From positions 1-59,716 of IMG/VR virus record IMGVR_UViG_3300020045_007673: DNA of 59,716 nt. One strand, given 5' to 3'. The translations under genes and the position numbers were made by a program. Position 1 is the stretch's first letter, and every line of letters begins with the position of its first letter. The notes under the pieces were generated by a model, which was not told the origin of the DNA, did not search any database, and saw only the letters and a list, made by a program, of their open reading frames with translations. Source of the DNA: a virus (taxonomy: Duplodnaviria > Caudoviricetes). Below, one piece after another: positions 1 to 56,980 of this stretch.

Positions 1-528
1 CTGGAATGGAATCGGCAGTACTGCACGACATCAAACGGATCGGGTACGGGGGATTTTACCTTTATTGCGCTGGCAAACCCGGCATCAACAGGCTCTGCGA
101 TTGGTCATGTGTTGGCGCAAAAGAACGATGCCGCCGGAACCCCCTTCGCGCAGGCGTGTTTATTGGCGCATTCCTCTTCTACTGCATCTCTTTCCTCAGG
201 GGCGTTTGCGTTTTTCACATTCAACTCGTCTAACTCTGGCATTAGTGCTGCTGGCGCATGCGACGGAGCTTGGCATGTGTGGACGGGTGTAAGGTCGGGC
301 ACGTCTATGTTTTTGTACAAAGACGGGGTGCAGATTGCGTCCGCTGGCGGATTGACTGTACGCAATATTTCTCAAGCATCACGATATACCGCTATTGGCA
401 GCCGGGGCAACGGAACAACGGAATCGTTCGTAAATGACATTGCGTTTGCTGCGATGATTGATCGGGCGCTTACGCCGACGGAAGTACGTAGCGTGAGTCA
501 AAATCCTTGGCAGGTTTTTGCCCCCTAG
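1..528 (+). CDS. 5'-truncated virion protein with LamG/concanavalin A-like jelly-roll domain
   Basis: Frame 1 is open from base 1 to TAG at 526-528. Motifs DGAWHVWTGVRSG..LYKDGVQ, IGSRG and DRALTPTEV are typical of LamG-like domains. Confidence 0.7.
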   Translation: MEWNRQYCTTSNGSGTGDFTFIALANPASTGSAIGHVLAQKNDAAGTPFAQACLLAHSSSTASLSSGAFAFFTFNSSNSGISAAGACDGAWHVWTGVRSGTSMFLYKDGVQIASAGGLTVRNISQASRYTAIGSRGNGTTESFVNDIAFAAMIDRALTPTEVRSVSQNPWQVFAP

Positions 529-531
529 ACC

Positions 532-1272
532 ATGCCAATCCGCGTAATTTATACGGGCGATCCATCTGGCGGTTCGCTAGAAATCACCGGCATCCTCGGC
601 ACCGCGACAGCGGGCGGATTTACCGCCCAAGTCGATAGACAGTTCGCCGTTTCCGGCACGCTAGGCACAGCCACTGCCAGCGGATTTACGGCAAACGTAG
701 ATCGCCAAGCGGCGATTGCCGGAATTCTCGGCACAGCGACTGCGAGCGGGTTTGGTGCCAGTGTTGATCGTCAGCTACAAATCAACGCCTTGCTTGGTGT
801 CGCGGTTGCCGACGGATTCACGGCGACAGTTACCAACAACAACGACCTCACGGTCAATGGGCTTCTCGGCACCGCTACGGCTTCCGGATTCACGGCGCAA
901 GTGGATCGGCAAATGGCGATTCTGGCTAGCCTGGGGCTGGCGAGTGCTGATGGATATACCGCGACGATCCAGAACACCGACCTACACGGCTTCACTCAAG
1001 ACCAACTTGACTTTCTCGTGACTTATATGGAGGCTAACTTGGCTATCCCGACCGCTAACGACAACGCGACCGCCGTGCTGAATTTCACAACGGATGGCGC
1101 TTTCACATTGAAAGAGTGTATCCGCTTACTTAATGCGGTGGCGGCGGGCAAGGTTTCCGGCGCGGGCACCGGCACGGAAGTATTCCGCGACCTCGCCGAT
1201 ACTAAAGACCGGATTGTTGCCACGGTGGATGCAAACGGCAACCGCACCGCGATCACGCGAGACGCGACGTGA
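532..1272 (+). CDS. Virion structural protein with ~20-aa tandem repeats
   Basis: Repeated LGTATASGFTA(Q/N)VDRQ units. C-terminus ETFRD..DTKDRIVATVDANGNRT-like. Confidence 0.65.
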   Translation: MPIRVIYTGDPSGGSLEITGILGTATAGGFTAQVDRQFAVSGTLGTATASGFTANVDRQAAIAGILGTATASGFGASVDRQLQINALLGVAVADGFTATVTNNNDLTVNGLLGTATASGFTAQVDRQMAILASLGLASADGYTATIQNTDLHGFTQDQLDFLVTYMEANLAIPTANDNATAVLNFTTDGAFTLKECIRLLNAVAAGKVSGAGTGTEVFRDLADTKDRIVATVDANGNRTAITRDAT

Positions 1273-1727
1273 TTAACTTCTTCGGCCAGAACTACCTAAA
1301 GGCGGACTACTTCCGCCCGGCGTACCTGCACGGTGCGGCGGAAGAAGGTAAGTCGGGCTATTGGCGCATGTTCTTCTATCGGATGCAGGAAGAAGCATTG
1401 AAGAAGCGCGACGAAAAGAAAATCCCCGAGAAGGTAGCAGAAACGTCCGAGGTGCGGCGCAAGAAAATACCGAGGGCAAAGGTTGTCGTCGAACCCGTAG
1501 AGCCTACCTTTACTCCGGAGCGCCTACCCGAGTTCAAGCGCAAGCCAATTTACGAAGAACCCCCGGCAAACGCGAAACTAGCAGAGTTGCCCGAAGCGGC
1601 AAAGTTTGCCATTTTCGTTCAGGATATGTCATCCAACATTATCTCGCTGGCGTATGAGCGGGAAAAACGCAAAAAGCGCTACCTCGCACGTCGCCGCGCG
1701 GCAGCGTTCCTACTCTTGGCGGCATAG
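1269..1727 (+). CDS. Hypothetical protein
   Basis: GTGA overlap with the upstream stop. Charged 152-aa ORF. Confidence 0.6.
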   Translation: MINFFGQNYLKADYFRPAYLHGAAEEGKSGYWRMFFYRMQEEALKKRDEKKIPEKVAETSEVRRKKIPRAKVVVEPVEPTFTPERLPEFKRKPIYEEPPANAKLAELPEAAKFAIFVQDMSSNIISLAYEREKRKKRYLARRRAAAFLLLAA

Positions 1728-1737
1728 GAGAAATGTC

Positions 1738-1911
1738 ATGGGCAAACTCGCACAGCAACTCGGTGGTCAGTCACAGACCAAGGTGTTCAAAAAGGGCGGC
1801 AAGGTTCACGGCGACGCCGCACAAGACCGCGCCATGCTCAAGTCAGCGGTCAAAGCCGACTGCCTGACCGGCAAGAAAAAGGGCGGGAAGGTGTGCAAGT
1901 GCGGGGGATAA
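1738..1911 (+). CDS. Small basic protein with two KKGGKV motifs (putative virion/internal protein)
   Basis: AGGAG RBS before ATG 1738. Sequence MGKLAQQ..FKKGGKV..KKKGGKVCKCGG. Confidence 0.7.
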   Translation: MGKLAQQLGGQSQTKVFKKGGKVHGDAAQDRAMLKSAVKADCLTGKKKGGKVCKCGG

Positions 1912-1915
1912 GCCG

Positions 1916-2488
1916 ATGACTTGCATCGCTTGGGATGGATATACGCTGGCGGCGGACAAACAATCCACGCATTGTGGCCTACGTTCTACCTGCACCAAGA
2001 TTCGTCGGCTTCCATCAGGGGAGTTAGTTACGTATTCGGGTGATCAGGATTCCGGTGAAATGTTGGTTCAGTGGTATGAAAACGGCGCTGATCCTAAAGA
2101 ATGGCCGCAATGTCAAAGCACCGATACGTGGGCCAGGATAATAGTAGTGGATCAAATAGGGGCAAAGTATTGCGAGCGTCAGCCAGCGTTCGTGCGGATT
2201 GAAGATCCTTTCTTTGCATGGGGGTCTGGTCGGGACTTTGCGCTTGCCGCGATGTACTTGGGCAAATCTGCCGGTGAAGCTGTCGAAATTGCTTGCTTTT
2301 TCGATGCCGGATGCGGCAAAGGGATTGATGTTTTTGAATGGCGAAAGGGCATGACGACAAAACCTAAATCTAAACAAAAGCCGACACCTCTCTTTACTCA
2401 CTCCCCAACCTTTATCAAGGATTATGGGCTGTCCGCGACGACCAACAAAGCCGTCGGGCGGTTGAAGAAAGGTGGCAAACGTGGATAA
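1916..2488 (+). CDS. Ntn-hydrolase / proteasome-beta (HslV-like) fold protein
   Basis: N-terminal M-T-C-I-A-W-D-G..LAAD, and FAWGSGRDFALAAM..AVEIA..D. These match the Thr1-nucleophile Ntn pattern. Confidence 0.65.
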   Translation: MTCIAWDGYTLAADKQSTHCGLRSTCTKIRRLPSGELVTYSGDQDSGEMLVQWYENGADPKEWPQCQSTDTWARIIVVDQIGAKYCERQPAFVRIEDPFFAWGSGRDFALAAMYLGKSAGEAVEIACFFDAGCGKGIDVFEWRKGMTTKPKSKQKPTPLFTHSPTFIKDYGLSATTNKAVGRLKKGGKRG

Positions 2489-2669
2489 ATTTCTCGCCAC
2501 AACGCTGATTCGGCTTGAGCAGTTGAAGCGCGATAGGGCAGATGATGCTATGCGCTTCCCGAAAGCTGACCCGTTCGAACACGGTACACAGGTCGGCACC
2601 TGGGCGGGTCTTGAAAACGCGATTCAACTAATCAACGCGATCTATGCCGATGGGGATGACGAAACGTAA
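2472..2669 (+). CDS. Hypothetical head-module protein
   Basis: 65-aa ORF directly upstream of groES. Confidence 0.65.
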   Translation: MANVDKFLATTLIRLEQLKRDRADDAMRFPKADPFEHGTQVGTWAGLENAIQLINAIYADGDDET

Positions 2670-2715
2670 CAGGGTTTGCTGACCCATTCAGCTATTTTAG
2701 TCAAGGAGACTATAC

Positions 2716-3126
2716 GTGAGTATGACCAAAGAGCAGTACGTTGCCGAGCATTTCCCTGATGTTTCCCCCGGCGCAACGCCTTGCGGGCCGAAGATTATCG
2801 TCCAGCTTCGTACCATCAAGACCAAGACCTCTGGTGGTATCGTTTTGGTGGAAGAAACTAAGGACTTCAACAACGGCAATACCCAAATTGCCCGTGTGGT
2901 CAGTATTGGGCAGATCGCTTTCCGTGATCGTAGTTCCGGCGAAACTTGGAAAGAGGGGGCGTGGTGTGGGGTTGGCGACATCATCATGATTCCGCGATGG
3001 GGCGGACTTCGTTTTGAAATCCCGATTCCGGGCCGGGATGAAAACGCCATCTTCGCCACTATCGACGACACCAACGTACAGATGGTGCTGACCGGTAACT
3101 TTGCAGCATTCGACACTTTGCTATAG
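2716..3126 (+). CDS. groES: Phage GroES-like co-chaperonin
   Basis: P.G.KIIV, KTSGGIVL mobile loop, ARVVSIG, and WC.VGD.I. Confidence 0.85.
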   Translation: MSMTKEQYVAEHFPDVSPGATPCGPKIIVQLRTIKTKTSGGIVLVEETKDFNNGNTQIARVVSIGQIAFRDRSSGETWKEGAWCGVGDIIMIPRWGGLRFEIPIPGRDENAIFATIDDTNVQMVLTGNFAAFDTLL

Positions 3127-52602: not shown

Positions 52603-53670
52603 ATGACCGAAGGATACAAAATTTTGAGTTTGCCGGAGCATGATGAGAAAATCAAATTTGAGCTGAAAAGCTGCGCGCACCTATTACCGCTCAGCAAGCG
52701 CGAGCAGATTCAAAACGTGGTAAGTGGAATGTCGCCCTTGACCCGCGCGCGGATAGCGAAGTACCCCGACGGAAAAGGCGCAACGCTCGATTGGTTTAAT
52801 CCAACGATACTTACCGGCGAAGAACCAGAAGATCCAAAGTTCAACCTAGATTGGTGGAACAAGTTGGCGGTCAAGGACAAAGGTTACGCGGAAGAAATGA
52901 AGACCTTCTATGTCCGTGCGACACTGTTCGGCGATCAAGCTACTCGCGAGGACCTCGCTGTAACGTATAAGCCTGTAGATTTCTATGCCACCTTAACGAA
53001 AGATACCGCGCTCGACTGGTATTACGGATTACCGGCTCATCTTCGCGCCAAAACGGACGAGGAGGTGAAAAAACAGCCAAACCCACGTAACGCCACACGC
53101 AAAGATAACGAGGCGCTATGGGACGCAGTGGCCCATTTCTGGGGGGATCGTCCGGCGTTGAAGTGGTACGTGGAAGAAGAGAAGGGGAGAGTAACGAGTA
53201 TAGAACCTGCCAGCAATGAAGCGCTGGAAGTGTATCGTCGTTGGGGGTACGAATATCAACAGGAGACGATTCGCGCTGTAGTGTTGTCGTATGGTCCGTC
53301 TATCCAACGAGAGCGGAAGATGCTCAATGAGGTAATGGGCCTCAACGTAGATAGCGACGGCCTGCCGAACCAGGCGGACGGATTGGACCCCACCACGGCG
53401 GCGACGGTACGGTGGTTGCAATCTACGGGAGAGCTCCCCCTGGAATTTTTAGCCAAGACCTATCGTAGTGAAGATGCGAAGATGAGTGACCGACTGACCG
53501 CCGCCCGGACGATGATGGATTTTGTCCATCGCCGCGTGCCGACAAAAACCGAGACGGAAACCAAGGGCGTTACCGAGCCGAAGCTGTCCGCGAACGTGCT
53601 CAAGAGCCTGGATGCGAAAGAGCTTGAACTGCTGGAAAAGCTGTTGCTGAAACTAAGTAACAATGGCTGA
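52603..53670 (+). CDS. Terminase small subunit-like protein with long N-terminal extension
   Basis: Overlaps the terL start. C-terminal PLEFL...R...RL.AA.....VH motif. Confidence 0.55.
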   Translation: MTEGYKILSLPEHDEKIKFELKSCAHLLPLSKREQIQNVVSGMSPLTRARIAKYPDGKGATLDWFNPTILTGEEPEDPKFNLDWWNKLAVKDKGYAEEMKTFYVRATLFGDQATREDLAVTYKPVDFYATLTKDTALDWYYGLPAHLRAKTDEEVKKQPNPRNATRKDNEALWDAVAHFWGDRPALKWYVEEEKGRVTSIEPASNEALEVYRRWGYEYQQETIRAVVLSYGPSIQRERKMLNEVMGLNVDSDGLPNQADGLDPTTAATVRWLQSTGELPLEFLAKTYRSEDAKMSDRLTAARTMMDFVHRRVPTKTETETKGVTEPKLSANVLKSLDAKELELLEKLLLKLSNNG

Positions 53671-56284
53671 AGTCGCGCCGATCATACTGCTGGATGCCGT
53701 TCGCCGGGAGCGGGAGACTCGCGCTGCCGAAAAATCATTGATTGAATTCACAAAACAGGCTTTCTCTATCATCGAGCCTGGTGTGACGTTTGTTGATAAT
53801 TGGCACTTGCACGCCATAGCGGAACATTTGGAAGCAGTTAGTGATGGGGAGATTGATAACCTTGTGATTAATATTCCTCCGGGATGCATGAAATCAATAT
53901 TGGTTTCTGTGGCGTGGCCCGCATGGGAGTGGATCGAAGATCCTAAATTACGCTACATGGGTGCATCATATGGGTCAGATCTATCAATACGTGACTCTAT
54001 GAAGTGTCGGGATATCGTATTGAGTGAGTGGTATCAACATCGTTGGCCACAGGTTCAGATTAAAGCCGGAAGTGATCAGAAAACCAAATACGACCTCGTG
54101 TCCGGAGGATGGAGAATGGCGACATCCACTGGGGGGCGAGCGACTGGAGAACACCCGGATAGAAAGATTGTGGATGACCCTCTAACCGCGTCTCAGGCAG
54201 ACTCTGACGCCGAAAGAGAGTCTGCCAACGTTTGGTTTGATCGCACTCTATCCACTCGCGGAGAGTCCCGAGGGGCGCGTACCGTCGTAGTAATGCAACG
54301 CCTACACGAAAAAGATATCACTGGGCACATTCTTACGGACTTGGCCGGATATGAACACTTGTGCCTACCGATGGAGTACGACGGTCGTCGATCAGTAACT
54401 TGTATTGGATGGGAAGATCCACGCACTACGGAAGGCTCTTTGCTTTGGCCAGAGATGTTCCCTGCCGATAAACTTAAAAAGCTCAAGCGCCTCCTCGGTG
54501 AATACGGGACTTCTGGCCAGCTTCAGCAGCGTCCGTCCCCAGCTGGCGGCGGTATCCTCAAGGTATCCCACTTTCAACGCTGGCCCGCGAAGGATGAACT
54601 CCCCGCGTTCGACTACATCGTTCAATCCCTCGATTGCGCATTCAGCGAGAAGACTACCAACGACCCTACCGCATTCGGTGCGTTCGGCGTGTTCTCGCAC
54701 AAGGGTAAGCGGGGCGTGATGCTACTCGATTGCTGGTCAGAGCATCTCGGCTATCCCGACCTCCGCGCCAAGGTGTTGGACGAATGGCATTCGGTGTATG
54801 GCAAGACCGGACAGCGGAAGGGCAAGAAAGCCGATGCCGTATTGATCGAGGCCAAAGCGAGCGGACAGTCGTTGATTCAGGACTTACGACAAGCGAACAT
54901 TCCCGCGATTCCATACAATCCGGGCAACGCGGATAAGGTCAATCGCGCTCACCAAGCCTCACCCATTCTTGAATTAGATTGCATATGGATACCCGAGAGC
55001 GCAAAGAACCCTGGTGAGTTTGTGACGTGGGCTAGGCCGTTCATCAGCCAACTTGAGCGCTTCCCGAATGACGAGCACGATGATTTTTGCTTCGTCGGAA
55101 ATACAAAAATAAGAAAGGCAGACGGTCTGGGAATTGACATAATGCACCTTTCGCCTGGTGATTTTGTTGATACTCCGTCTGGCCCTTGCCGCGTGCTTTC
55201 TGCTGGGTGTAGCAATCCTTCAGCAGAAGTGCTTGAGGTTAGGCTATCAAACGGAATTTCTCTTGTTGGCACGAAAGATCATCCGGTTTATATCCCAGCG
55301 CTTGCGGCATTTGTCGCGCTTGGGCAACTCATAGAAGGGGATGAACTATGCGTGTCGTCGAGGTTGTTCGATACAGAGGAGTTAATTACCGCAGATATCC
55401 GTATAGTTCGAGCGCTGCCATATCTAGATATTTTTATGGGAAGCGTGAAGGAAAGAATGAAGCGCTGCATCGGGTTGTTTGGGCAGACAATCACGGGGAG
55501 ATACCAAAGGGTAAGCAAGTGCATCACAAAGACGGCAACCCTGCGAACAACTCGATTGAAAATCTTGAATGCCTTACGTCGGCTGAACATGGAGAAAGGC
55601 ATCAGAAAGACGACGCTTCACCAAGAACAATATACGTTAGAGAATGGAACAAGAAAAACAAAAAGCCAAAGGAAAAGGTTAAGCCTAGCCTCTTCTCATG
55701 CGCAAGATGCGGCGAAGAGTTTGCTTCGCTTCAAACAGACAGGGCTAAGTTTTGTTCAACAAAGTGCCGCGATTTGTTCCATTCCGGCGGAAAAAAAGAG
55801 TATTGCTGCGCCGTTTGCGGAGTTTTGTTTCTTTCCGCTACGGTGGCTGTCGCCTGTTCGCCAGAGTGCAGGAAAGAGTATCGCCGCAGACGAGAGCAGG
55901 AAAGGCACGCAATCCGGTACATGCCAAGAGATAAAAAACAATATCAAAAGCAATGCGGAGAATGTGGAAAGCCATTCGCTACAGAAGAGCATCTGGCGCG
56001 CTACTGTTCCTCCGCTTGCCGCATTGCAAAAAAGCGAAACGACGCGCGTGCTTTGGGTCAAAAGAAAAACCAAACGTGAGCCAGTATATGCAGTAAAAGT
56101 TGAAGGGAATCCCGTGTTTTTCGCTAACGGGGTTCTAGTGCATAACTGCGATATTTTTTCGCAGTGCATGATCTACCTCCGCGATAGCGGTTGGCTTGAA
56201 ATGCCGCAAGCCGCCGAAGATGAACCCGAAGAGGTGGATTATTACAACAAAAAGCGGAATAGCTTTAACCCTTACTCGGCTTGA
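53663..56284 (+). CDS. terL: Terminase large subunit containing an intein
   Basis: INIPPGCMKS, IVDDP, VMQRLHE.D, QS.D.AF and IEAKASG motifs. The HDDF|CD nuclease motif is split by the intein. Confidence 0.9.
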   Translation: MAEVAPIILLDAVRRERETRAAEKSLIEFTKQAFSIIEPGVTFVDNWHLHAIAEHLEAVSDGEIDNLVINIPPGCMKSILVSVAWPAWEWIEDPKLRYMGASYGSDLSIRDSMKCRDIVLSEWYQHRWPQVQIKAGSDQKTKYDLVSGGWRMATSTGGRATGEHPDRKIVDDPLTASQADSDAERESANVWFDRTLSTRGESRGARTVVVMQRLHEKDITGHILTDLAGYEHLCLPMEYDGRRSVTCIGWEDPRTTEGSLLWPEMFPADKLKKLKRLLGEYGTSGQLQQRPSPAGGGILKVSHFQRWPAKDELPAFDYIVQSLDCAFSEKTTNDPTAFGAFGVFSHKGKRGVMLLDCWSEHLGYPDLRAKVLDEWHSVYGKTGQRKGKKADAVLIEAKASGQSLIQDLRQANIPAIPYNPGNADKVNRAHQASPILELDCIWIPESAKNPGEFVTWARPFISQLERFPNDEHDDFCFVGNTKIRKADGLGIDIMHLSPGDFVDTPSGPCRVLSAGCSNPSAEVLEVRLSNGISLVGTKDHPVYIPALAAFVALGQLIEGDELCVSSRLFDTEELITADIRIVRALPYLDIFMGSVKERMKRCIGLFGQTITGRYQRVSKCITKTATLRTTRLKILNALRRLNMEKGIRKTTLHQEQYTLENGTRKTKSQRKRLSLASSHAQDAAKSLLRFKQTGLSFVQQSAAICSIPAEKKSIAAPFAEFCFFPLRWLSPVRQSAGKSIAADESRKGTQSGTCQEIKNNIKSNAENVESHSLQKSIWRATVPPLAALQKSETTRVLWVKRKTKREPVYAVKVEGNPVFFANGVLVHNCDIFSQCMIYLRDSGWLEMPQAAEDEPEEVDYYNKKRNSFNPYSA
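55088..56146 (+). mobile_element. Intein (353 aa) in the TerL nuclease active site
   Basis: Block A CFVGNT, block B GTKDHPV, block F VYAVKV, block G ANGVLVHN, and +1 Cys. Confidence 0.9.
55348..56079 (+). CDS. HNH homing endonuclease with Zn-finger repeats, out of frame inside the intein
   Basis: LHRVVW...G.IP.G.QVHHKDGN..NN..ENLE...H, then three CxxC/CS..C modules. Own RBS GAAGGGG. Confidence 0.85.
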   Translation: MRVVEVVRYRGVNYRRYPYSSSAAISRYFYGKREGKNEALHRVVWADNHGEIPKGKQVHHKDGNPANNSIENLECLTSAEHGERHQKDDASPRTIYVREWNKKNKKPKEKVKPSLFSCARCGEEFASLQTDRAKFCSTKCRDLFHSGGKKEYCCAVCGVLFLSATVAVACSPECRKEYRRRREQERHAIRYMPRDKKQYQKQCGECGKPFATEEHLARYCSSACRIAKKRNDARALGQKKNQT

Positions 56285-56323
56285 TATATAATAGCGAAAA
56301 ACTATCGCCAAGGAAGCTAGTCT

Positions 56324-56980
56324 ATGGCTGGTGCCCGACAACTATCAACGTTCGCCAAAGGCGGAGCGGTTCTCGACGACAAGCGCGACATGCTGGAGCA
56401 ATCCCCGCTCGCCGCGATCTTCTCGCGGGCCGAATGGCTCAAGCGCCAGTTGCGTGACATCCTCCAGAATCCCGCCGCTCGCGTTGAACAGATGGGTGAT
56501 ATCCAGAATCAGTCATTGCGTGAAGACCCGCTAACCATGATGTCTAATTTCATCGCTCCTGGGGTTGGTGGGGTGATGAAGCCTCCGGGGAAAGATTGGC
56601 TGAAGATCCTGAATAAGCCTGTTACGGCGAGTGATTCGCTTAACCTTGGCATTACAGATTCGCTTTTTTACAAAGGGCAGTCCGCAGAAGAAGCGTCGGA
56701 TGTAGCAACTGCTATAGCTAGTGGAGTTGATCCTAAAATAATAGGAGCGGCTCTAATGCGTAGTGATTGGATCGAAAGAAAAATACCTATTCCAGAACGG
56801 ATTAAGCTTCGCAAGGCCGAACTTGAAGATTTCGACCACGAATTTTCTCCCCCTGTTGAAAATGTTTCGGAAGCAAAAGACATACTCAAAGGTTTCGCTT
56901 CCGGCGGCTCAGTCCGCGCCCCAGTAAAAACCACCGCCGACCTATCAGCGGTAATTGCATCACTCCAACAAGGTATTTAA
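56324..56980 (+). CDS. Hypothetical protein with FAKGGAV/FASGGSV motifs
   Basis: AAGGAA RBS. Lies between terL and the portal gene. Confidence 0.65.
   Translation: MAGARQLSTFAKGGAVLDDKRDMLEQSPLAAIFSRAEWLKRQLRDILQNPAARVEQMGDIQNQSLREDPLTMMSNFIAPGVGGVMKPPGKDWLKILNKPVTASDSLNLGITDSLFYKGQSAEEASDVATAIASGVDPKIIGAALMRSDWIERKIPIPERIKLRKAELEDFDHEFSPPVENVSEAKDILKGFASGGSVRAPVKTTADLSAVIASLQQGI

What the first reader, a model, noticed from the sequence alone, without database searches (positions are those of the whole stretch)
55088..56146. Intein with its homing endonuclease encoded in a different, fully overlapping reading frame
Seen: the TerL frame stays open through a 353-aa intein (CFVGNT...VHN/C) inserted in the HDDF-CD nuclease motif. 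Its central ~240 codons read as non-protein-like sequence with no LAGLIDADG or HNH motif. The shifted frame (55348-56079) encodes a complete HNH nuclease with Zn fingers and its own RBS. It starts right after the N-terminal splicing region (..LIEGDELC) and stops inside the C-terminal one. Established: canonical inteins carry the endonuclease in frame. Inference: 732 nt are kept stop-free in two frames, so the nuclease is translated independently of TerL and of splicing. This may be an intermediate in endonuclease invasion of mini-inteins or a distinct element class. The spliced TerL would be 520 aa.
Basis: partly seen in the sequence, partly recalled or inferred. Interest (0 to 1): 0.85.

Follow-up and report, generated by a model that had tools for sequence, protein, structure and literature searches.

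The report
Terminase intein with out-of-frame HNH gene
A phage DNA-packaging gene carries a self-splicing protein insert (an intein), and the middle of that insert also encodes a complete HNH nuclease gene in a shifted reading frame; the layout is real and conserved in over a hundred related loci, but the kind has been described before.

Summary
The terL ORF (53663..56284, 873 aa) holds a 353-aa class-1 intein (55088..56146). A 243-aa ORF (55348..56079) lies in the +2 frame and is a Pfam HNH_3 nuclease with Zn-ribbon repeats.

AlphaFold2 gives a confident Hint fold only for intein residues 1-90 and 316-353. The centre is disordered. The +2 ORF folds confidently (pLDDT 86.6), and its best structural match is the homing endonuclease I-HmuI.

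This is not an assembly artefact. Of 132 sources examined, 111 show the same layout: intein frame open and HNH at +2. Two of them are isolated phages, Clostridium phage phiCDHM19 and Rhodobacteraceae phage LS06-2018-MD07.

In 15 related pairs the HNH frame is under purifying selection and the intein frame is not. Across 106 distinct loci the intein frame has 0 stops, against 239 expected.

The kind is in print: brucellaphage terL (2015) and Gogarten-lab work (2025-26). This scan has also met it on other DNA.

Verdict: a new member of a known kind. Independent translation, splicing and homing are inferred, not shown. Interest is moderate.

The parts
53663..56284 (+). terL precursor ORF (873 aa, stop included)
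   Evidence: ORF list. PHROGs phrog_38 'terminase large subunit' E 1.7e-85 over residues 14-475. Pfam Terminase_6C over 388-472.
53663..55087 (+). N-extein (TerL residues 1-475), ending ...NDEHDDF
   Evidence: Intein-less relatives of 501-555 aa align colinearly across the junction.
55088..56146 (+). Class-1 intein, 353 aa (C1 ... HN)
   Evidence: C1, T62, H65, H352 and N353 are invariant in 61 relatives, and the +1 Cys is nearly invariant.
55088..55357 (+). N-terminal splicing region (intein residues 1-90; block B motif T62-x-x-H65)
   Evidence: AlphaFold2 pLDDT 96-98. Foldseek matches to mini-inteins such as gp41-1, E 9.9e-6, rmsd 2.4 A.
55358..56032 (+). Intein centre in the TerL frame (residues 91-315): stop-free but unstructured linker, the 'shadow' of the HNH gene
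   Evidence: pLDDT 42-52. In relatives dN/dS is 0.77-10.6 in this frame. The same DNA scores a mean of 17 bits in this frame against 76 bits in the HNH frame.
56033..56146 (+). C-terminal splicing region (intein residues 316-353; ...FFANGVLVHN)
   Evidence: pLDDT 94-98, strands 317-326, 331-338, 343-346 and 349-352.
56147..56284 (+). C-extein (45 aa, starting with the +1 Cys) and stop codon
   Evidence: Intein-less relatives have Val or another residue where the window has the +1 Cys (HDDF-V-D against HDDF|C-D).
55334..55341 (+). Shine-Dalgarno-like GAAGGGGA, 7 nt between its G run and the HNH ATG
   Evidence: Read. Function is inferred. No sigma-70-like promoter was found upstream inside terL.
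55342..55344 (+). TGA stop in the HNH frame, 6 nt upstream of the HNH ATG
   Evidence: It leaves only two sense codons for any frameshift fusion.
55348..56079 (+). HNH endonuclease gene, 243 aa, +2 frame relative to terL (stop TGA at 56077..56079)
   Evidence: AlphaFold2 mean pLDDT 86.6.
55462..55593 (+). HNH_3 catalytic motif (HNH residues 39-82; H41, H59, H60, N68 and H81 invariant in relatives)
   Evidence: Pfam PF13392 E 5.8e-19. Invariant columns. I-HmuI 1u3e: Z 7.6, rmsd 2.4 A over 76 residues.
55687..56031 (+). Three CxxC...C zinc-ribbon-like repeats of the HNH protein (residues about 114-228)
   Evidence: translation. C118, C121 and C140 invariant. Weak Pfam treble-clef and zinc-finger hits. 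The third repeat is modelled with less confidence, pLDDT 57-67.

Best explanation
The window's terL gene carries a class-1 intein inserted in the conserved ...HDDF|(V/C)D... motif of the TerL RNase H-like nuclease domain.

The intein's N-terminal part (about 90 aa) and C-terminal part (about 38 aa) form a mini-intein-like Hint fold. The roughly 225 codons between them act in the TerL frame only as a stop-free, disordered linker.

The same DNA, read in the +2 frame, is a separate gene for an I-HmuI-like HNH_3 nuclease with three Zn-ribbon repeats.

Most likely mechanism (inferred):
1. Ribosomes translate terL straight through the linker.
2. The two splicing parts dock and excise the whole 353-aa intein, giving a 520-aa TerL.
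3. Other ribosomes start at the internal SD-ATG (55348) on the same mRNA and make the free-standing nuclease.
4. That nuclease nicks or cuts intein-less terL alleles in co-infecting relatives, and repair copies the intein with its nested gene into them (homing).

Shown here: the anatomy; the folds (predicted); conservation of the layout in more than 100 loci; frame-specific selection in relatives; colinearity of the spliced product with intein-less TerLs.

Inferred: translation of both products, splicing, the cleavage target, and homing.
For: Anatomy and domains.

Folds:
- The intein model is confident only at residues 1-90 and 316-353. It matches mini-inteins (gp41-1 E 9.9e-6; Mtu RecA; DnaB).
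- The HNH model has pLDDT 86.6. I-HmuI is the top hit by Foldseek (E 0.026, prob 0.98) and by VIA-align (Z 7.6; the next hit is 4.8).

Splicing residues: C1, T62, H65, H352 and N353 are invariant in 61 relatives, and the +1 Cys is nearly invariant. In 106 distinct loci residue 1 is always Cys, and the 3' junction is HN followed by Cys or Ser in 103.

Conservation of the layout: of 132 sources scanned with my own HMMs, 111 have an open intein frame with the HNH at +2. These include the isolates phiCDHM19 and LS06-2018-MD07. No in-frame HNH was found in 165 intein-bearing proteins.

Selection, in 15 related pairs:
- Overlap region, HNH frame: dN/dS 0.07-0.42.
- Overlap region, intein frame: 0.77-10.6.
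- N-terminal splicing region, intein frame: 0.05-0.69.

Stop avoidance: 0 stops observed against 238.7 expected in the intein frame of 106 loci. The third frame has 1585 against 1717 expected. For the window alone, 74 of 20000 recodings are stop-free.

Window against 108 loci: the HNH-frame score exceeds the intein-frame score in 108 of 108.

Spliced product: the 520-aa TerL aligns end to end with intein-less relatives at 49-71% identity, with no gap at the junction.

Separate initiation: a TGA 6 nt upstream in the HNH frame and an SD-like site.

No intron: no Rfam family at E <= 1.
Against: - No expression, splicing or cleavage data exist for this element. No sequencing run could be listed for it.
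- The window has no close relative. The nearest intein, P0028, is 38% identical and its DNA was not recovered. Selection therefore could not be measured on the window's own lineage; the dN/dS figures come from other family members.
- In most of those pairs dS exceeds 1 (saturated). Only L024/L029 (dS 0.44) is clean.
- In overlapping frames the two dN/dS values are not independent.
- The SD-like motif is imperfect. Only 33 of 92 long ORFs in the window have such a 4-mer upstream, against a background of 16%.
- The structural match to I-HmuI is moderate (Z 7.6, Foldseek E 0.026).
- Distances between HNH domains and between splicing domains correlate only weakly (Mantel r 0.148). Nuclease and splicing scaffold may therefore not always travel as one unit.
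Confidence: 0.85

Rival explanations
1. Assembly or sequencing artefact: two compensating indels in a metagenomic contig put a canonical in-frame HNH out of frame.
For: The window is a metagenome-derived virus record. Its reads could not be inspected.
Against: The same +2 offset and open host frame occur in 111 of 132 independent sources, including two isolated, published phage genomes. None of 165 related intein proteins has the HNH in frame. The HNH ORF has its own ATG directly after a stop. Stop avoidance in the host frame is non-random.
Confidence: 0.01
2. In this phage the HNH gene is a silent or decaying relic. The element persists only as a mini-intein with a long junk linker, kept open because terL is essential.
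For: Selection on terL alone would keep the host frame open. Related inteins do decay: 3 loci keep only a Zn-ribbon remnant and 13 have no HNH_3 catalytic part, though 5 of those 13 carry another out-of-frame nuclease. No expression data exist. The third Zn-ribbon is modelled with lower confidence.
Against: The 243-codon ORF is intact, whereas the third frame of the same DNA has 14 stops. All residues invariant in the family are present (H41, H59, H60, N68, H81, C118, C121, C140). The fold is confident. A start codon and SD-like site are present. Family members show strong purifying selection on this frame.
Confidence: 0.08
3. The nested HNH is not a homing enzyme. It has been co-opted by the phage, for example as a terminase-associated HNH that helps packaging, which would explain why it sits in terL.
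For: HNH proteins do assist terminases in some phages. This was cited and proposed for the brucellaphage nested HNH in PMC4422536 (passages read). 96 of 97 N-exteins examined (the 97 include the window's own) bore at least one terminase-large-subunit Pfam family (Terminase_6N in 50, Terminase_3 in 33, with some N-exteins carrying more than one) or another non-portal family, and one was a portal.
Against: The closest fold is the intron homing endonuclease I-HmuI. PHROGs hits are generic HNH endonuclease families, plus one weak hit (E 2.8e-06) to an intron-like DNA endonuclease family. The element sits at several different sites of several unrelated TerL families and once in a portal, which fits a mobile element and not a dedicated cofactor. 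Close extein relatives commonly lack the intein: 23 of 28 loci around P0028 gave no hit to my intein HMMs, and intein-less TerLs exist at up to 71% identity to the window's.
Confidence: 0.07
4. The nuclease is made as a fusion with TerL N-extein and the N-terminal intein part, through a programmed -1 ribosomal frameshift, not by separate initiation.
For: The HNH frame is -1 (= +2) relative to terL, the direction of most programmed frameshifts.
Against: A TGA in the HNH frame lies 6 nt before the ATG, so a shift would have to occur within two codons. RNA folding around the site is no better than shuffled sequence (z 0.45). In relatives the HNH frame also opens just after a stop and begins with ATG in most loci.
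Confidence: 0.02

Closest known systems
Brucellaphage (Perisivirus Tb, Pr and relatives) terL intein with a nested out-of-frame HNH gene. GenBank NC_019446.1 annotates terL as 'intein present' with an overlapping 'putative HNH endonuclease'. Virol J 2015, PMC4422536 (passages read).
   Same: A TerL intein whose frame stays open, with a complete HNH gene with Zn-ribbons on the same strand in another frame. The splicing ends look similar (CLVAGT......FFANGILVHNC).
   Different: The offset is +1, not +2. The nuclease is a classical PF01844 HNH with the Zn-ribbons N-terminal and the HNH motif C-terminal. It resembles the window's protein only marginally (30.8 bits over 42 residues). The insertion site is different, just before the VIIDDP motif, which I take to be Walker B.
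Non-canonical actinobacteriophage inteins with a homing endonuclease in a separate frame (Gosselin, Arsenault and Gogarten, bioRxiv 10.1101/2025.01.02.630785; abstract and passages read).
   Same: An endonuclease ORF on the same strand, out of frame ('frame 3'), inside inteins that include terL inteins. The in-frame centre is unstructured in predicted models. Origin is proposed as invasion of an intein by a free-standing endonuclease gene.
   Different: Their out-of-frame nuclease is endonuclease VII-like (IPR004211). In that survey HNH occurs only in frame. The hosts are Actinobacteria. Its supplementary tables could not be opened, so HNH_3 cases there cannot be ruled out.
Cyanobacterial dnaX intein with an out-of-frame (+2 ORF) LAGLIDADG endonuclease (Phillips, DeSimone and Gogarten, bioRxiv 10.64898/2026.09.14.751524; abstract, Results and one Discussion section read).
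   Same: A +2 overlapping ORF with an SD motif, a disordered in-frame centre, low omega in the nuclease frame and high omega in the host frame. This is the same pattern as here.
   Different: The nuclease is LAGLIDADG, the host gene is cellular (dnaX) and the hosts are cyanobacteria.
Canonical in-frame HNH_3 intein, for example the dCTP deaminase intein of cyanophage vB_AphaS-CL131, shown to self-excise (PMC6293099; passages read).
   Same: The same nuclease family (HNH_3), between Hint N- and C-terminal parts, in a phage gene.
   Different: There the nuclease is in frame and is part of the intein polypeptide. Here it is a separate gene in the +2 frame.
ShiLan-type insertion: an out-of-frame HNH hidden in a phage DNA methylase (Arsenault et al., Genes 2025, PMC11855218; abstract, Discussion and passages read).
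   Same: A hidden HNH in an alternate frame while the host frame stays open.
   Different: It has no splicing domain, so the insert is thought to stay in the host protein. Here complete intein splicing blocks flank the overlap.
Split inteins of 'fractured genes' with a free-standing endonuclease between the halves (Dassa et al. 2009). Recalled, and as cited; not read here.
   Same: A mini-intein-like splicing scaffold together with a separately translated endonuclease gene. The window's splicing domain best matches the gp41-1 intein structure. That gp41-1 belongs to the Dassa set is recalled, not checked.
   Different: There the host gene is broken into two ORFs and splicing is in trans. Here the host frame is continuous.

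Membership tests
Class-1 intein (Hint splicing domain) | Nucleophile (Cys/Ser) at intein position 1 | tested here: met
   C476 of TerL, encoded at 55088. Cys in 106 of 106 distinct relatives.
Class-1 intein (Hint splicing domain) | Block B TxxH motif | tested here: met
   T62-K-D-H65. Both T62 and H65 are invariant in 61 sequences.
Class-1 intein (Hint splicing domain) | C-terminal His-Asn followed by a Cys/Ser/Thr +1 residue | tested here: met
   H352-N353, then C829. HNC or HNS in 103 of 106 relatives.
Class-1 intein (Hint splicing domain) | Hint fold formed by the N- and C-terminal parts | tested here: met
   AlphaFold2 pLDDT above 94 for residues 1-90 and 316-353. Foldseek matches to gp41-1, RecA and DnaB mini-inteins, 29 hits at E <= 0.001. 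Pfam Intein_splicing scores 27-30 bits, below its 35.8 cut-off, because of the large insert.
Class-1 intein (Hint splicing domain) | Removing the insert restores a colinear host protein | tested here: met
   The 520-aa spliced TerL aligns across the junction with 9 of 9 intein-less relatives tested, at 49-71% identity.
Class-1 intein (Hint splicing domain) | Protein splicing observed | not testable with these tools
   Needs expression of the precursor.
HNH_3 / I-HmuI-like homing endonuclease | Profile match above the curated threshold | tested here: met
   PF13392: 67.9 bits against a cut-off of 24.8. phrog_15471 'HNH endonuclease' E 3.8e-30.
HNH_3 / I-HmuI-like homing endonuclease | Conserved His/Asn catalytic and metal-binding residues | tested here: met
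   H41, H59, H60, N68 and H81 are invariant in 61 sequences. Assigning catalytic roles to them rests on recalled knowledge of HNH enzymes.
HNH_3 / I-HmuI-like homing endonuclease | Beta-beta-alpha-metal fold like I-HmuI | tested here: met
   1u3e is the top hit: VIA-align Z 7.6, rmsd 2.4 A, 76 residues, 25% identity, next hit Z 4.8. Foldseek E 0.026, prob 0.98. The strength is moderate.
HNH_3 / I-HmuI-like homing endonuclease | Site-specific cleavage of the empty allele, and homing | not testable with these tools
   Only indirect evidence: intein-less alleles exist among relatives.
Inteins with an out-of-frame, same-strand homing endonuclease gene | Complete nuclease ORF in another frame between the splicing blocks while the host frame stays open | tested here: met
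Inteins with an out-of-frame, same-strand homing endonuclease gene | Purifying selection on the nuclease frame and relaxed selection on the host frame in the overlap | tested here: inconclusive
   Met in 15 pairs of family members. It could not be measured on the window's own lineage for lack of a close relative with DNA. The indirect test on the window does agree: 108 of 108 comparisons score higher in the HNH frame.
Inteins with an out-of-frame, same-strand homing endonuclease gene | Nuclease of the type described in print (endonuclease VII-like, LAGLIDADG, or the PF01844 HNH of brucellaphages) | tested here: not met
   The window's nuclease is HNH_3. It matches the brucellaphage HNH only marginally. 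It therefore belongs to the kind but to a different nuclease lineage.
Split intein / fractured gene | Host gene divided into two separately translated ORFs | tested here: not met
   One continuous 873-codon ORF.
Group I or group II intron carrying an HNH ORF | Recognisable intron RNA structure | tested here: inconclusive
   No Rfam match at E <= 1 in 54800..56400. The open host frame and the intein blocks argue for a protein-level element.

The most novel reading that the evidence does not exclude
The HNH_3/+2 arrangement may be an old, stable and very widespread class of dual-coding mobile element, not a passing intermediate.

It occurs in at least five TerL families plus a portal, in prophages or contigs assigned to many bacterial phyla, and in at least one archaeal MAG.

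On this reading one mini-intein scaffold serves as a general 'safe harbour' that free-standing nuclease genes colonise in alternate frames. Sister inteins in this clade carry out-of-frame LAGLIDADG_2, DUF559/Vsr-like and PF01844 HNH genes.

The overlap itself would then be favoured. Any frameshift or nonsense change in the nuclease region also destroys the essential terL, and the nuclease dose is uncoupled from TerL. No paper found in five full-text searches describes this HNH_3 family or the multi-nuclease pattern within one intein clade.
Probability: 0.45. Interest if true: 0.55.

Novelty: new member of a known kind. Interest (0 to 1): 0.4.

Why it matters
For this window the practical points are about annotation.
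- terL is one 873-codon gene that should yield a 520-aa terminase after splicing.
- A 243-aa nuclease gene is hidden inside it. It was absent from the protein collection searched, which should list the window's own proteins.

More generally, the evidence gathered here shows that out-of-frame endonuclease inteins are not rare oddities.
- At least 106 distinct loci share this one HNH_3 layout, among them published phage genomes where terL is annotated as a single long protein (phiCDHM19, LS06-2018-MD07).
- They are a clean natural case of long dual coding (about 240 codons) with opposite selection regimes in the two frames.
- They bear on how inteins acquire endonucleases (the 'splicing first' scenario).
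- They offer compact mini-intein scaffolds that tolerate linkers of more than 200 residues.

The principle is already published, so the value lies in scope and annotation, not in discovery.

Tried and rejected
- Close relatives of the window's element. blastn of terL against the phage collection found nothing. The search for related loci with TerL gave only intein-less TerLs at 32-37% identity. With the HNH protein it gave nothing. The nearest intein, P0028 (38% identity), has no DNA among the 28 metagenome loci recovered. Per-frame dN/dS on the window's own lineage was therefore impossible, and I used family pairs instead.
As that answer advised, I went on with other tools: the search for related loci with an intein alignment.
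- The look-up of sequencing runs listed no run, so none was listed as DNA or RNA holder.
- Promoter scan. There is no sigma-70-like site upstream of the HNH inside terL; the 2 sites found lie at the terL 3' end and are no more than in shuffles.
- RNA fold around the start is not better than shuffled sequence.
- Rfam gave no match.
- The frameshift-fusion idea was rejected because of the stop 6 nt upstream.
- A search for an in-frame version of this HNH among 165 related intein proteins found none (phmmer, E <= 10).
- Mantel test of co-divergence of HNH and splicing domain gave only r = 0.148 (0 of 999 permutations reach it). I do not claim a single origin or strict co-inheritance.
- The 'shadow motif' count is lenient at E <= 10 (97 of the 150 listed representatives). 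At E <= 0.001 it is 57 of 150.
- Rows dropped. Five duplicate or near-identical loci (L041, L049, L092, L096, L104) were left out of the 106-locus counts. L001-L011 (intein-less TerLs and the window's own copy) were left out of the HMM scan. N-exteins shorter than 150 aa were left out of the Pfam tally (96 loci plus the window were scanned).
- Supplementary files of the papers were closed. Supplementary tables of the 2025 preprint may list further architectures.

Full report
WHAT IS THERE

The window is a complete 59,716-base virus record. On the + strand one frame is open from 53663 to 56284 (873 codons). A second ORF of 243 codons, 55348..56079, lies wholly inside it in the +2 frame.

The long ORF is a large terminase. 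PHROGs phrog_38 matches residues 14-475 at E 1.7e-85. Pfam Terminase_6C matches residues 388-472.

At residue 476 the terminase similarity stops and an intein begins with CFVGNT. It ends with VLVHN at residue 828, followed by Cys. Pfam's Intein_splicing model aligns residues 513-828 to profile positions 40-155. That means a very large insert sits inside the splicing domain, and the score stays below the curated cut-off.

The nested ORF is a Pfam HNH_3 nuclease (E 5.8e-19, 67.9 bits against a cut-off of 24.8). It carries three CxxC...C repeats. PHROGs calls it an HNH endonuclease (phrog_15471, E 3.8e-30).

An SD-like GAAGGGGA lies at 55334..55341. A TGA in the HNH frame lies at 55342..55344, directly before the ATG at 55348.

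FOLDS

I predicted both readings with AlphaFold2, each with an alignment of 60 relatives.

In the TerL frame:
- Residues 1-90 have pLDDT 96-98 and are all beta.
- Residues 316-353 have pLDDT 94-98.
- Residues 91-315 have pLDDT 42-52 and, apart from one low-confidence predicted helix (152-169), no secondary structure.

The confident part matches solved mini-inteins: gp41-1 at E 9.9e-6 and rmsd 2.4 A, and the Mtu RecA and DnaB mini-inteins. There are 29 matches at E <= 0.001.

In the +2 frame the 243-aa protein has mean pLDDT 86.6, and 82-98 up to residue 190. Its best structural match is the intron homing endonuclease I-HmuI (1u3e). VIA-align gives Z 7.6, rmsd 2.4 A over 76 residues and 25% identity, and the next hit is Z 4.8. 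Foldseek ranks it first at E 0.026, probability 0.98. This match is moderate, but it agrees with the profile hit.

The nuclease ORF spans intein residues 87-330. It overlaps about 4 codons of the N-terminal splicing region and about 14 codons of the C-terminal one.

IS IT MORE THAN CHANCE, OR AN ARTEFACT?

I recoded the HNH ORF with synonymous codons. This puts a mean of 4.6 stops into the TerL frame with genome codon usage (74 of 20000 recodings stop-free). Permuting codons within the ORF gives a mean of 2.8 stops (277 of 20000 stop-free). The third frame behaves as expected, with 14 stops observed.

The strongest argument is comparative. A search of 1.84 billion representative proteins with the 353-aa intein found 649 hits at E <= 0.001. 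Many of the listed hits align far past the splicing region, into the 'junk'. That stretch carries a recurring pattern (C-I/T-G-x-F/Y-G ... I-T-K-T-A-T-x-x-T-T), which is the HNH motif read one base out of step. 57 of the 150 listed hits match this 57-residue 'shadow' at E <= 0.001. None of 165 related proteins has the HNH in frame.

I then fetched DNA:
- 80 viral loci and 49 genome loci, using an intein alignment as the query.
- Two annotated phages whose terL region had matched the HNH protein by tblastn.

I scanned all frames with my own HMMs for the HNH, the N-terminal splicing part and the C-terminal splicing part. The 132 sources, the window included, fall out as follows:
- 111: open intein frame with the HNH at offset +2.
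- 2: HNH at +2 with a broken intein frame (L111, L120).
- 1: broken frame with offset 0 (L119).
- 1: a weak +1 hit (L122).
- 16: no HNH_3 catalytic part (3 of these keep only a Zn-ribbon remnant).
- 1: no N-terminal hit.

Clostridium phage phiCDHM19 (terL 443..2842, HNH ORF 2056..2721) and Rhodobacteraceae phage LS06-2018-MD07 (terL 1047..3095, HNH ORF 2417..2902) are isolated, published genomes with the same layout. A pair of compensating sequencing errors cannot explain this.

SELECTION

The window has no relative close enough for substitution analysis. I used 15 family pairs with 64-89% nucleotide identity and Nei-Gojobori counts.

| Region | Frame | dN/dS |
|---|---|---|
| Overlap | HNH | 0.07-0.42 (one pair saturated) |
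| Overlap | Intein | 0.77-10.6 |
| N-terminal splicing region | Intein | 0.05-0.69 |
| N-terminal splicing region | +2 | 0.78-7.6 |

The cleanest pair, L024/L029 (dS 0.44), gives 0.09 in the HNH frame against 10.6 in the intein frame. Two caveats apply: dS exceeds 1 in most pairs, and the two frames are not independent.

Across 106 distinct loci the intein frame contains 0 stops where synonymous-codon permutation expects 238.7. The third frame has 1585 against 1717 expected.

For the window itself I compared the overlap DNA with 108 loci. It scores a mean of 76 bits in the HNH frame against 17 bits in the intein frame, and the HNH frame is higher in 108 of 108 comparisons.

Invariant residues:
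- HNH frame: H41, H59, H60, N68, H81, C118, C121, C140.
- Intein frame: C1, T62, H65, H352, N353, with the +1 Cys nearly invariant.

THE HOST GENE AND THE INSERTION SITE

Removing residues 476-828 gives a 520-aa TerL. It aligns end to end with nine intein-less relatives of 501-555 aa at 49-71% identity, with no gap at the junction. They read ...NDEHDDF-V-D-T-F... where the window reads ...NDEHDDF|C-D-I-F....

The site lies in the RNase H-like nuclease domain, at about Terminase_6C profile position 132 of 155. That the HDD motif carries a catalytic acidic residue is my recollection of terminase nucleases, not a test.

In the family:
- The first intein residue is Cys in 106 of 106 loci.
- The 3' junction is HN followed by C or S in 103 of 106.
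- The element sits at several sites (HDDx|C, xDH|C, GPQHxxxW|C-DELA and others) in several TerL families. Of 97 N-exteins (the window's own plus 96 loci), Terminase_6N occurs in 50, Terminase_3 in 33, Terminase_6C in 22, Terminase_3C in 15 and GpA in 3. One host is a portal.

Presence is patchy. Of 28 loci encoding close relatives of P0028's TerL, 23 give no intein HMM hit. One has a mini-intein at the site and one has the +2 HNH intein. This is the pattern expected of a mobile element.

HOW IT MOST LIKELY WORKS

Shown: the anatomy, the predicted folds, the conservation and the frame-specific constraint.

Inferred:
1. terL is translated through the disordered linker. The two splicing parts associate as in a mini-intein and excise the 353-aa intein.
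2. The nuclease is made separately from the internal SD-ATG on the terL mRNA. No promoter-like site lies upstream within terL, and a stop lies 6 nt upstream in its frame.
3. The nuclease cuts or nicks intein-less terL alleles, and repair copies the element in.

No intron signature is present.

Rivals are an artefact, a silent relic, a nuclease co-opted for packaging and a frameshift fusion. They are weighed in their own section, and none is favoured.

COMPARISON WITH WHAT IS KNOWN

The kind is in print.
- Brucellaphage genomes annotate terL as 'intein present' with a nested HNH gene (NC_019446.1). [quoted passage not shown] I checked that case. Its offset is +1. Its nuclease is PF01844 with N-terminal Zn-ribbons and is only marginally similar to the window's. 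Its insertion site is different.
[quoted passage not shown] It lists HNH only as in frame (10.1101/2025.01.02.630785; abstract and passages read).
- A 2026 preprint shows a +2-frame LAGLIDADG in the dnaX intein, with the same omega pattern as here (10.64898/2026.09.14.751524; abstract, Results and one Discussion section read).
- An out-of-frame HNH without any splicing domain is known from a phage methylase (PMC11855218; abstract, Discussion and passages read).
- An in-frame HNH_3 intein that splices is known from cyanophage CL131 (PMC6293099, passages read).

Five full-text searches found no description of this HNH_3/+2 family as such. Supplements were closed and subscription journals are not covered.

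Earlier notes of this scan report the same layout on other DNA (55 findings). The brucellaphage lead came from them, and I verified it.

VERDICT

The element is a new member of a known kind, in a nuclease lineage (HNH_3, I-HmuI-like, +2) that appears to be large and under-annotated. Interest is moderate. The mechanism is well supported by comparison but untested by experiment.

Noticed in passing
L127:1567-2544 (+2), L132:447-1256 (+1), L130:2655-3305 (+1), L136:413-1276 (+1), L140:1768-2439 (+1), L122:1770-2528 (+1): Sister inteins with the same kind of splicing ends carry other long out-of-frame, same-strand ORFs in their centre. These are LAGLIDADG_2 (L127, L132), DUF559/MTES_1575 Vsr-like nucleases (L130, L136, L140) and a PF01844 HNH with a treble-clef motif (L122). 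One intein clade therefore hosts at least four nuclease families out of frame.
   Followed up: partly
L042, L112, L141: The intein frame is open, but only a Zn-ribbon remnant of the HNH gene is left in the other frame. The centres are short (38-82 aa). They look like stages of decay towards a mini-intein.
   Followed up: no
L111 (contig of a Methanimicrococcus MAG), L119 (Saccharibacteria MAG), L120 (Planctomycetota MAG): [quoted passage not shown] In L120 the HNH and the C-terminal part share one ORF. These could be frameshift errors, pseudogenes or split forms.
   Followed up: no
L091:1489-2058 and L091:2755-3366: Two separate HNH hits (E 1e-42 and 4e-55) lie inside one 1073-codon ORF. This suggests two such nuclease-bearing inteins in a single gene.
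   Followed up: no
HNH start junction in many loci, e.g. L017, L021, L022, L034, L040, L091, L098, L137: The intein codons for ...(Y)GDI(I)... read GGTGATATAAT just before the HNH ATG. They create the stop that opens the HNH frame, and they also resemble an extended -10 box (TGnTATAAT). The window has GGGGATGAACT at the same place.
   Followed up: no
L143-L170: Close TerL relatives of P0028, the nearest intein to the window's, are mostly intein-free: 23 of 28 loci have no intein HMM hit. L144 has a mini-intein at the same site. L146 and L170 have a different intein further upstream without HNH_3.
   Followed up: partly
window 55348..56079: The 243-aa HNH protein of the window did not appear among the hits of the search for homologous proteins, although the window's own proteins are normally listed. 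It may not be in the collection, which would fit the nested gene being missed by gene callers.
   Followed up: no
L013 (NC_028996.1 443..2842) and L012 (OP947163.1, locus 1047..3095): In both published phage genomes terL is annotated as one long CDS, with no annotated intein or nested HNH gene.
   Followed up: partly
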